This document shows, in pieces, positions 48,930-48,990 of a DNA stretch of 64,000 nucleotides (position 1 is its first letter; the number at the start of each line of letters is the position of its first letter). The notes below the pieces were generated by a model. It was given only the letters and a program-made list of their open reading frames with translations, ran no database searches and was not told the DNA's origin. A program made the position numbers and the translations under genes. The DNA comes from a virus (lineage: Duplodnaviria > Caudoviricetes): positions 64,001 to 128,000 of IMG/VR virus record IMGVR_UViG_3300037484_000235; one strand, given 5' to 3'.

Positions 48930-48990
48930 GGGGAGGTGCTCGCGGGAGCTAGTGCACTAAAGCCAGATTCGACTTCTGGCCTCTCCACCG
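48930..48990 (+). ncRNA. mini alanyl-acceptor RNA (acceptor plus T arm only)
   Basis: GGGGAGG/CCTCTCC with G3-U70, A73; CCAGA-TTCGACT-TCTGG. Confidence 0.6.

What the first reader, a model, noticed from the sequence alone, without database searches (positions are those of the whole stretch)
48930..48990. 61-nt mini alanyl-acceptor RNA resembling a bare tmRNA tRNA-like domain
A perfect acceptor GGGGAGG/CCTCTCC has G3-U70 and A73, and the T arm is CCAGA-TTCGACT-TCTGG. Only 26 nt, containing one hairpin, replace the D and anticodon arms. A GCGTAAG promoter-like motif lies 10 nt upstream. This is a second Ala-identity non-decoding RNA 150 nt from the giant one.
Basis: partly seen in the sequence, partly recalled or inferred. 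Interest (0 to 1): 0.62.

Follow-up and report, generated by a model that had tools for sequence, protein, structure and literature searches.

The report
Anticodon-less mini alanine tRNA in phage
A giant phage's tRNA gene cluster holds a 60-base miniature tRNA that keeps every mark needed for charging with alanine but has no anticodon, so it is probably a tRNA look-alike that cannot read codons; it is not a stripped-down tmRNA, and its job is unknown.

Summary
At 48930-48989 (+) a perfect 7-bp acceptor stem (G2-C71, G3.U70, G4-C69), A73 and CC sit directly on a canonical T arm, on the strand of a 46-tRNA array in a 252-kb phage record. Shuffled genomes give about 0.05 such frames.

Two corrections. 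The 26 middle bases form two small hairpins, not one: a D-like one whose stem matches tRNA-Ala's, and a 3-bp stem with a 4-base loop that still reads UGC. So this is a shrunken tRNA-Ala cloverleaf. No sigma-70-like promoter was found.

It is not a bare tmRNA tRNA-like domain. Rfam's tmRNA model gives nothing here, but scores 42.9 bits on true TLD-only RNAs that I found in other phage contigs. It is also not a YrlA-type Y RNA, although a Ro60 gene lies 700 nt downstream.

No sequence homologue exists. Two related phages carry anticodon-less mini-cloverleaves in the same slot; one keeps G3.U70 and A73. Compared with the phage's own tRNA-Ala(UGC), all three changed stem pairs are compensated, which argues for selection on the fold.

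Best reading (about 0.5): a processed, probably alanine-charged, non-decoding tRNA mimic. Main rival (0.3): a decaying tRNA copy. Expression, charging and function are untested.

Other AI notes of this scan report similar alanine-type mini tRNAs in unrelated phages.

The parts
48930..48936 (+). acceptor stem, 5' strand (GGGGAGG)
   Evidence: Pairs 7/7 with 48980-48986, giving G2-C71, G3.U70 and G4-C69. Found as a perfect frame by my scan.
48937..48937 (+). single linker base (U8 analogue; A9 is missing)
   Evidence: Comparison with the phage's tRNA-Ala genes.
48938..48949 (+). D-like hairpin GCUC-GCGG-GAGC (4 bp, 4-nt loop containing GG)
   Evidence: The stem is identical to the D stem of the phage's three tRNA-Ala genes. 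The counterparts in L042 and L005 also have a 4-bp stem with GG in a 3-4-nt loop.
48950..48959 (+). vestigial anticodon arm UAG-UGCA-CUA (3 bp, 4-nt loop that still reads UGC)
   Evidence: A 4-nt loop cannot present an anticodon. ARAGORN calls no tRNA here. The counterparts have 4-5-nt loops.
48960..48962 (+). variable-region analogue AAG
   Evidence: It is AGG in L042 and L005.
48963..48979 (+). T arm CCAGA-UUCGACU-UCUGG
   Evidence: 5/5 Watson-Crick pairs and a canonical T loop.
48980..48986 (+). acceptor stem, 3' strand (CCUCUCC)
48987..48989 (+). discriminator A73 and encoded CC (the final A is not encoded)
   Evidence: The ending ACC-g is the same as in the phage's tRNA-Ala(GGC); tRNA-Thr(UGU) ends TCC-g and tRNA-Trp GCC-g. 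The phage encodes a PolyA_pol/CCA-adding family enzyme.

Best explanation
This is a gene for a miniaturised, anticodon-less derivative of tRNA-Ala, one of several tRNA look-alikes in this Ro60-encoding jumbo phage's tRNA array.

Shown:
- The sequence encodes a 57-nt four-arm mini-cloverleaf plus ACC.
- It has an intact 12-bp acceptor/T stack and a canonical T loop.
- It has a short D-like hairpin with GG in its loop.
- It carries the bacterial alanine identity set of the acceptor stem.
- It has no loop able to present an anticodon.

Inferred:
- It is transcribed with the array.
- RNase P cuts it at G1. Its 3' end is trimmed after RNase P cuts the Ser tRNA that starts 3 nt further on.
- The phage's or the host's CCA-adding enzyme completes it to CCA.
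- Host AlaRS charges it with alanine, because AlaRS needs only the acceptor stem.

Because it cannot decode, it would act off the normal decoding path as a tRNA mimic. The role I think most likely is a decoy or competitor for factors that read the acceptor/T half of (Ala-)tRNA: AlaRS, EF-Tu, CCA-end or acceptor-targeting host factors, or ribosome-rescue factors. A dedicated alanine donor is less likely. The precise role is open.
For: - Anatomy read from the sequence. The cloverleaf is within 1.3 kcal/mol of the MFE fold.
- Not chance: 0.05 comparable frames are expected per shuffled genome. The element lies in the array, on its strand, behind an A/T-rich leader and with a partial CCA like true tRNAs there.
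- Identity set A73, G2-C71, G3.U70, G4-C69 as listed for bacteria in PMC9976931. That review also cites the charging of minihelices by AlaRS.
- Tie to tRNA-Ala: the D stem is the same and the 4-nt loop still reads UGC. Over 32 frame positions the nearest relative is the phage's own tRNA-Ala(UGC), at 23/32. The three stem pairs that differ are all changed on both sides, and none of the 12 pairs is broken. No close paralogue exists in the genome. The element therefore looks old and kept folded, not freshly broken.
- Same architecture in the same slot (after Ser(CGA), before Ser(UGA)/Ser(GCU)) in two related phages: L042:2514-2579 (CM 28.5 bits, E 3e-5; G3.U70 and A73 kept; 8 of 19 pairs changed on both sides, 97% of cells paired) and L005:2845-2911. 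Synteny is anchored by a homologous small ORF.
- A descriptor for this mini-cloverleaf finds only array elements in about 1.9 Mb of related loci, and nothing in reversed or complemented controls.
- Alanine-type frames recur in this clade: the window's giant, the L038 giant and the L042 mini, and a 91-nt frame in G002.
- The phage encodes a CCA-adding family enzyme.
Against: - No evidence of transcription, processing or charging.
- No sequence-level homologue anywhere.
- Absent from the closest relatives, which have 81-84% Ro60 identity (L003, L004, L034-L038).
- The L042 counterpart is closer to the 'giant' lineage (28/32 to the L038 giant) than to this element (21/32), so orthology is unsure.
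- The L005 counterpart has lost G3.U70 and has a mismatched T stem pair, as a decaying copy would.
- Any two tRNA-like RNAs aligned to one structure show compensatory changes, so one search is weak evidence.
- The fold z-score is only -1.8.
- No partner gene in the record, which is 57% complete: no AlaRS, SmpB, Fem-type transferase or RtcB.
Confidence: 0.5

Rival explanations
1. A non-functional remnant. A duplicated tRNA-Ala (or a copy of the 166-nt alanine-type RNA) lost its D loop and anticodon arm through small deletions in an array that homing endonucleases often rearrange. It is simply decaying.
For: - Patchy distribution: absent from the nearest relatives, and no sequence homologue.
- The L005 counterpart looks degraded.
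- Two HNH endonuclease genes lie in the array 1-2.5 kb upstream, and gene order differs between relatives.
- No expression data.
Against: - All 19 pairs of four helices are intact after at least four separate length changes.
- Compared with the nearest tRNA (23/32), every changed stem pair is compensated.
- No close source paralogue exists, so the copy is not recent.
- The full alanine set and a partial CCA are kept.
- The same anticodon-less architecture recurs in the same slot in two other phages.
Confidence: 0.3
2. A TLD-only tmRNA, as in mycobacteriophage DS6A: a bare tmRNA tRNA-like domain that titrates SmpB and blocks host trans-translation.
For: - Alanine identity, no anticodon, phage origin.
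- True TLD-only RNAs do occur in phage contigs.
Against: - The Rfam tmRNA models give no real hit on the element, whereas the TLD-only control scores 42.9 bits.
- It has a D-like stem-loop, no GGNUUCGAC-type segment, and no P2 helix or GGAC junction.
- No smpB gene in the record.
Confidence: 0.07
3. A Y-RNA-type partner or tRNA-like module for the phage Ro60 (Rsr) protein encoded 700 nt downstream.
For: - The Ro60/TROVE+vWA gene at 49692-51359 lies on the same strand, within the 4-kb range in which YrlA genes are found (PMC4201824).
- Bacterial Y RNAs mimic tRNA, and M. smegmatis YrlA is cut by RNase P and gains CCA.
Against: - No GNCGAAN0-1G motif.
- The arm order is that of a tRNA (D-like, then T), not the permuted T-AS-D order of YrlA.
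- No YrlA/YrlB hit at E up to 10.
- Most related Ro60 phages lack the element.
Confidence: 0.08
4. A purely cis-acting processing signal: a tRNA-shaped punctuation mark that recruits RNase P or 3' processing enzymes to release the odd Ser tRNA that follows. The excised piece would have no role of its own.
For: In all three phages the mini lies 3-7 nt upstream of a Ser tRNA.
Against: - Spacings of 2-12 nt are common throughout the array.
- Keeping the alanine identity set is not explained.
- In L042 and L005 the Ser tRNA that follows is canonical and would need no helper.
Confidence: 0.05

Closest known systems
Canonical tRNA-Ala(UGC), e.g. the phage's own gene at 42068-42143
   Same: Acceptor stem identical in 6 of 7 pairs. 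Shared G3.U70, A73, the D stem GCUC/GAGC, a T arm stacked on the acceptor stem, and UGC in the middle loop.
   Different: The D loop has 4 nt instead of 8. The anticodon arm has 3 bp and a 4-nt loop instead of 5 bp and 7 nt. The variable region has 3 nt and A9 is missing, giving 57 nt instead of 72. It cannot decode, and neither ARAGORN nor Rfam tRNA detects it.
TLD-only (message-less) tmRNA of Mycobacterium phage DS6A (tmRNA Website tmID 11587; PMC4131195), and the TLD-only RNAs at L115:4017-4081 and four sister contigs
   Same: Phage-encoded, about 60 nt, alanine identity, T arm, no anticodon, no message.
   Different: The TLD has an unpaired D-loop analogue with the UCGAC motif, and a P2 helix with a GGAC junction. 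It scores 42.9 bits on RF00023. The window element has a D-like hairpin, lacks these motifs and gets no RF00023 hit.
Synthetic minihelix-Ala / microhelix-Ala substrates of AlaRS (Francklyn and Schimmel 1989, as cited in PMC9976931)
   Same: A 12-bp acceptor/T stack with G3.U70 and A73, which is sufficient for charging by AlaRS.
   Different: The window element is natural and genome-encoded, and it keeps two extra small hairpins that could form a tRNA elbow. Its charging has not been tested.
The 166-nt alanine-type tRNA-like RNA of the same phage (49135-49300) and its homologue at L038:2287-2422
   Same: Same array, same strand, G3.U70 and A73, no usable anticodon. In L038 the giant holds the slot that minis hold in L042 and L005, and the L042 mini matches the L038 giant at 28 of 32 frame positions.
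   Different: The giant carries about 105 nt of extra structured arms and a full D arm. The frame identity of the window's mini to the window's giant is only 19/32.
YrlA-type bacterial and phage Y RNAs (Rfam RF02553; PMC4201824)
   Same: A tRNA-mimicking small RNA encoded close to Ro60. One member gains a CCA end.
   Different: YrlA is circularly permuted (T arm, closed acceptor-like stem, D arm) and carries the GNCGAAN0-1G motif. Neither feature is present here.
mascRNA (61-nt tRNA-like RNA cut from MALAT1; Rfam RF01684; details from my own knowledge)
   Same: The same size, a tRNA-like cloverleaf with a stunted anticodon arm, made by tRNA processing enzymes and CCA addition.
   Different: mascRNA is eukaryotic and is not known to be aminoacylated. 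There is no sequence relation: no hit for the window element and 14.3 bits, E 0.88, for L042.

Membership tests
tmRNA tRNA-like domain / TLD-only tmRNA | Acceptor stem with G3.U70, A73 and a (C)CA end | tested here: met
tmRNA tRNA-like domain / TLD-only tmRNA | T arm with a canonical T loop stacked on the acceptor stem | tested here: met
tmRNA tRNA-like domain / TLD-only tmRNA | Unpaired D-loop analogue (GGNUUCGAC-type) after the acceptor strand, and a P2 helix with a GGAC junction before the T arm, as scored by Rfam RF00023 / RF04321 | tested here: not met
   No RF00023 hit at E up to 10. RF04321 gives 8.7 bits on the T arm and 3' strand only. The positive control L115:4017-4081 scores 42.9 bits, E 1.5e-16, end to end.
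tmRNA tRNA-like domain / TLD-only tmRNA | Binding by SmpB | not testable with these tools
   No smpB gene in the 252-kb record. Host SmpB is unknown.
Canonical tRNA (RF00005), isotype Ala | Anticodon arm with a 7-nt loop that presents an anticodon | tested here: not met
   The loop has 4 nt on a 3-bp stem. There is no ARAGORN call and no RF00005 hit at E up to 10.
Canonical tRNA (RF00005), isotype Ala | Bacterial alanine identity set in the acceptor stem (A73, G2-C71, G3.U70, G4-C69) | tested here: met
   The set is as listed in PMC9976931.
Canonical tRNA (RF00005), isotype Ala | D arm whose loop supplies G18 and G19 for the elbow, and G20 | tested here: inconclusive
   The 4-bp stem is identical to tRNA-Ala's, but the loop is only GCGG. 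GG is also present in the L042 and L005 counterparts. The tertiary contacts cannot be computed here.
YrlA / bacterial Y RNA (RF02553, RF02565) | Encoded within about 4 kb of Ro60 on the same strand | tested here: met
   Ro60 (TROVE+vWA) lies at 49692-51359. The criterion is from PMC4201824.
YrlA / bacterial Y RNA (RF02553, RF02565) | GNCGAAN0-1G Ro60-binding motif near the 5' end | tested here: not met
   Absent from 48930-48989. The motif is from PMC4201824.
YrlA / bacterial Y RNA (RF02553, RF02565) | Permuted order: T arm, closed acceptor-like stem-loop, D arm, with the 5' and 3' ends forming the long stem | tested here: not met
   The order here is acceptor, D-like, stub, T, acceptor. No Rfam hit.
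Minihelix-Ala type AlaRS substrate (a functional class) | 12-bp acceptor/T stack with G3.U70 and A73 | tested here: met
Minihelix-Ala type AlaRS substrate (a functional class) | Charged with alanine by AlaRS | not testable with these tools
   Needs an aminoacylation assay.

The most novel reading that the evidence does not exclude
The element is a working natural 'alanyl mini-tRNA'. It would be the smallest member of a phage lineage of alanine-type tRNA frames whose middle module varies from 26 nt to about 105 nt. It would be excised, CCA-tailed and charged by host AlaRS, and would act off the decoding path during infection. It might compete for AlaRS, EF-Tu or ribosome-rescue factors, shield phage tRNAs from host factors that attack acceptor ends, or hand alanine to a non-ribosomal acceptor. 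Together with the similar elements that this scan noted in unrelated phages, it would define an undescribed class of phage tRNA mimics, separate from TLD-only tmRNAs and from Y RNAs.
Probability: 0.3. Interest if true: 0.8.

Novelty: new variant of a known kind. Interest (0 to 1): 0.58.

Why it matters
AlaRS is the textbook synthetase that charges an isolated acceptor/T minihelix. As far as my searches and knowledge go, that has been a test-tube result. The only natural parallels I found are tmRNA and one TLD-only phage RNA mentioned in passing.

A genome-encoded, anticodon-less mini tRNA with the complete alanine signature, kept folded inside a phage tRNA array, would be a natural counterpart of minihelix-Ala. 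It would show that phages use tRNA-shaped RNAs for something other than decoding.

It also warns annotators that tRNA and Rfam scanners miss these genes. In this clade they also miss several odd Ser tRNAs and other tRNA-like frames.

If the element turns out to be a relic, it still records how tRNA genes in phage arrays shrink and expand around a constant acceptor/T frame.

Tried and rejected
- Sequence homologues: megablast and blastn against 50,697 phage records, exact and degenerate patterns in IMG/VR, and blastn against 15 Ro60 loci and five related phage records found no homologue of the mini.
- Looser pattern: a GGGG...CTCCA pattern in IMG/VR gave 81 loci. After filtering the best were a TLD-only tmRNA family, the end of a true tmRNA (L140) and a few unrelated alanine-type frames. 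None was a relative of the mini.
- Single-sequence and two-sequence covariance models mostly hit ordinary tRNAs. Only L042:2514-2579 and L005:2845-2911 were of interest.
- Several other short model hits were rejected: L033:8746-8813, L032:5489-5558 and L033:5691-5760 are parts of called tRNAs (Tyr, Cys), and L030:7422-7477 looks like a Y-RNA 5' part.
- Sequencing runs: no RNA holder is listed. The four DNA runs I laid have no contig over 48876-49205, so they say nothing about the element.
- A search for relatives of the small minus-strand ORF in IMG/VR found none.
- GNCGAA-like strings that I noticed in the 166-nt RNA and in L004's double-T element are not conserved between relatives, so I dropped them.
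- CCGAAG in the loops of the L042 and L005 counterparts resembles the vertebrate Y RNA motif, but it sits in a hairpin loop and is absent from the window element. I did not pursue it.
- Looked for partner genes in the record: AlaRS, SmpB, FemAB, Acetyltransf_6 and RtcB are all absent. The record is only 57% complete, so this is weak.
- attP or integration-site reading: both acceptor strands are present and no integrase lies nearby, so I rejected it.

Full report
SETTING. The window is bases 64001-128000 of a 252.5-kb IMG/VR virus record that CheckV rates 57% complete. ARAGORN finds 46 tRNA genes between 38.3 and 52.9 kb, all on the + strand and none for Ser. Rfam adds nothing but tRNAs at gathering thresholds. 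The ORF at 49692-51359 is a Ro60 orthologue: Pfam vWA_Ro60 7.7e-18 and TROVE 2.1e-7, and PHROG 850. Two HNH endonuclease genes lie at 46417-46947 and 47580-47966.

THE OBSERVATION.
- A 7-bp acceptor stem, GGGGAGG with CCTCTCC, contains G3.U70.
- A73 and CC follow the stem.
- The T arm CCAGA-TTCGACT-TCTGG abuts the 3' strand.
- A scan for 'perfect acceptor plus perfect T arm' frames picks it out as the only short frame on the array strand.
- Forty dinucleotide-preserving shuffles of the genome give 0.05 frames of this stringency per genome.
- Its leader is A/T-rich like those of the true tRNAs. Its ACC-g end is the same as that of tRNA-Ala(GGC), and tRNA-Thr(UGU) and tRNA-Trp likewise end in CC-g.
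- The next tRNA-like gene starts 3 nt downstream.

Two details need correcting.
- The 26 middle bases form two small hairpins, GCUC-GCGG-GAGC and UAG-UGCA-CUA. This gives a four-arm mini-cloverleaf that costs 1.3 kcal/mol more than the MFE fold.
- The sigma-70 consensus scan finds no promoter in 48500-49400.

The MFE z-score by itself is unimpressive, at -1.8.

WHAT IT DERIVES FROM. I aligned the element with the phage's three tRNA-Ala genes.
- It shares their D stem (GCUC/GAGC).
- It has one linker base instead of two and a 4-nt D loop instead of 8.
- A stub stands where the anticodon arm should be, and its loop still reads UGC.
- Over the 32 'frame' positions (5' strand, T arm, 3' strand, N73) its nearest relative is the phage's own tRNA-Ala(UGC), at 23/32. 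The three stem pairs that differ are all changed on both sides, and none of the 12 stacked pairs is broken.
- No closer paralogue exists in the genome.

So the element is not a fresh wreck of a neighbouring gene. It has diverged while staying folded.

WHAT IT IS NOT.
- Not a tRNA for the scanners: ARAGORN makes no call, and RF00005 gives no hit at E up to 10 even when only 81 nt are searched.
- Not a tmRNA tRNA-like domain. The only tmRNA-type signal is 8.7 bits (E 2.9) of RF04321 on the T arm and 3' strand.
- I obtained a positive control by chance. A loose pattern scan of IMG/VR, filtered for pairing, found a 61-67-nt family (L115:4017-4081, and also L158, L160, L183, L190). That family has the UCGAC segment, a short P2 helix, GGAC and a UUCAACU T loop. 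RF00023 scores it 42.9 bits, E 1.5e-16, from model position 1 to 374 with the middle deleted. That is what a bare TLD looks like, and the window element lacks all of these features.
[quoted passage not shown] - Not a YrlA-type Y RNA. YrlA has a GNCGAAN0-1G motif and the permuted order T arm, closed acceptor-like stem, D arm (PMC4201824). Neither is present here, and Rfam gives no YrlA or YrlB hit.

RELATIVES. With the Ro60 protein as query I fetched three sets of sequence:
- 15 loci from IMG/VR;
- 80 loci from metagenomes;
- the full tRNA arrays of five related phages.

The arrays are syntenic. By sequence, the mini is found in none of them.

A single-sequence covariance model run with filters off found L042:2514-2579 at 28.5 bits, E 3e-5.
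- It has an acceptor stem with G3.U70 (one A.A mismatch), a 4-bp hairpin with a GGG loop, a 6-bp hairpin with a 5-nt loop, AGG, a T arm and A73.
- It lies 4 nt upstream of a canonical tRNA-Ser(UGA).
- On the model-fitted alignment, 97% of cells pair and 8 of 19 pairs are changed on both sides. This is expected of any two tRNA-shaped RNAs, so it shows shared architecture, not homology.

A two-sequence model added a weaker case, L005:2845-2911.
- It has the same D-like hairpin stem and a 6-bp hairpin with a CGAA loop.
- It has A3-U70 instead of G3.U70, U73, and a C.A mismatch in the T stem.

The slot is the same in all three phages:
- window: Ser(CGA), mini, Ser(GCU);
- L005: Ser(CGA), mini, Ser(UGA), Ser(GCU);
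- L042: a small minus-strand ORF, mini, Ser(UGA), Ser(GCU).

The small ORF is homologous to window 48287-48571 (47% identity, E 3e-24).

A structural descriptor for the mini-cloverleaf finds, in about 1.9 Mb of these loci, only these three elements, a second family (the L004:3115-3180 type) and one low-complexity false hit. It finds nothing in reversed or complemented controls.

The closest relatives (81-84% Ro60 identity: L003, L004, L034-L038) have no mini.

RELATION TO THE 'GIANT'. In L038 the slot after Ser(CGA) holds a 136-nt homologue of the window's 166-nt alanine-type RNA, with G3.U70 and A73. The L042 mini matches that giant at 28/32 frame positions, but matches the window's mini at only 21/32. 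I therefore read minis and giants as size variants of one kind of alanine-type frame whose middle module is exchangeable. Whether the window's mini is an orthologue of the L042 element or an independent derivative of tRNA-Ala(UGC) stays open. Another alanine-type frame, 91 nt long, lies elsewhere in the L005 phage.

MECHANISM. Shown: the anatomy. The steps below are inferred.
1. The element is co-transcribed with the array.
2. RNase P cuts 5' of G1. The 12-bp stack, the T loop and the ACC are what the enzyme reads; minihelix substrates are known (my own knowledge).
3. RNase P cleavage of the following Ser tRNA leaves a 5-nt trailer, which is trimmed. The final A is added by the phage's PolyA_pol/CCA family enzyme (55 bits) or by the host's.
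4. AlaRS charges it. The bacterial alanine determinants A73, G2-C71, G3.U70 and G4-C69 are all present, and AlaRS charges minihelices (PMC9976931).
5. With a 4-nt loop it cannot decode.

What it then does is open. I favour a decoy or competitor role at the acceptor/T half of tRNA. The reference list of PMC9976931 includes a paper whose title reports that sequence-specific RNA minihelices inhibit cell growth (Hipps and Schimmel 1995); I did not read that paper. A TLD-like molecule also inhibits tmRNA. An alanine-donor role lacks a partner: the record has no Fem-type or related transferase, and also no AlaRS, SmpB or RtcB. The record is incomplete, so these absences are weak.

WEIGHING. For function:
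- intact helices after several length changes;
- compensated substitutions;
- the complete identity set;
- array-type ends;
- recurrence of the architecture and the slot;
- recurrence of alanine identity in this clade.

For decay:
- patchy distribution;
- no orthologue by sequence;
- a degraded counterpart in L005;
- no expression data. No RNA run holds the locus, and the DNA contigs I laid do not cover it.

I put a functional, non-decoding alanine-type tRNA mimic at about 0.5, a relic at 0.3, and the tmRNA-TLD, Y-RNA and punctuation readings together at 0.2.

EARLIER NOTES OF THIS SCAN. Other AI notes report alanine-type, anticodon-less mini tRNAs in tRNA arrays of unrelated phages, and TLD-only tmRNAs in others. 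I could not check those sequences, so they are leads and not evidence. They do make it more likely that this element belongs to a wider, undescribed class. My literature searches found no description of such RNAs apart from DS6A.

Noticed in passing
window 47260-47347, 47958-48043, 48588-48677, 48993-49080: Four Ser tRNA-like genes (anticodon loops with GGA, UGA, CGA and GCU) that ARAGORN and Rfam tRNA miss. They have a long D stem with a 3-4-nt loop and an 8/4-like acceptor/T geometry. The last one scores 33.8 bits on the tRNA-Sec model. They would supply the only Ser tRNAs of the array. Relatives have the same type. The Ser(CGA) one resembles unannotated stretches in Caulobacter phage CcrColossus, DSS3_MAL1 and a Mesorhizobium phage.
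   Followed up: partly
window 47349-47467: A 119-nt tRNA-like RNA with two T arms inside one acceptor stem. It is 93% identical to L004:3412-3530, far above the roughly 75% of neighbouring tRNAs. It is also present at L038:2425-2540, with a looser version at L005:3127-3231. Its inner part reads T arm, 7-bp hairpin (with compensated changes between the window and L004), D-like arm, which is the YrlA order.
   Followed up: partly
window 49135-49300; L038:2287-2422: The 166-nt alanine-type tRNA-like RNA has a 136-nt homologue in L038 that keeps G3.U70, A73 and an identical 19-nt segment (GGAGGGGTAGCTGCCCGAG). The Rfam tmRNA model gives only 26.8 bits on its 3' two-thirds.
   Followed up: partly
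L004:3115-3183, L035:2222-2287, L036:~1300-1365, L038:1988-2061, L042:2001-2068, L005:2451-2509: A second family of 59-72-nt tRNA-like genes, with a conserved 3' strand TAGCGAC (TAACGAC in L042) followed by GA, and 'anticodon' loops of 5-7 nt that differ between phages. It lies just before the Ser cluster in relatives and is absent from the window.
   Followed up: partly
L115:4017-4081 (also L158, L160, L183, L190): A TLD-only tmRNA (RF00023, 42.9 bits end to end) in small phage contigs. It lies inside the 3' end of the open frame that holds a lambda-type portal gene, just before the next gene. Hairpin variants differ by a 6-nt indel.
   Followed up: partly
window 49360-49408: A stretch (…GGGAACTGATCA…CGCGGACA…) upstream of tRNA-Gly(GCC) and Ro60 is conserved in L003, L004, L005, L038 and L041, either before or after the Gly gene. 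Its function is unknown.
   Followed up: no
window 48287-48571 (-) and 48655-48873 (-): Two small minus-strand ORFs lie inside the + strand array. The first (94 aa) has a homologue in L042 (47% identity). The second (72 aa) has no Pfam or PHROG match and overlaps the 3' end of the Ser(CGA) gene.
   Followed up: partly
window 40392-40458: A 67-nt tRNA-like frame (perfect acceptor and T arm, GCCA end) that ARAGORN does not call. Its middle arm has an oversized loop.
   Followed up: no
L030:3089-3179 (-), the phage of L005: A 91-nt frame with G3.U70 and A73 and no D arm or anticodon loop, between the two tRNA-Val genes.
   Followed up: no
L140:1981-2341: A full tmRNA (ARAGORN tag ANDEAVLQAA) next to tRNA genes in a 435-kb phage contig.
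   Followed up: no
G000:C1:45866-46342 (outside the window): A PolyA_pol / CCA-adding family domain (55 bits) in a 547-aa open frame of the phage.
   Followed up: no
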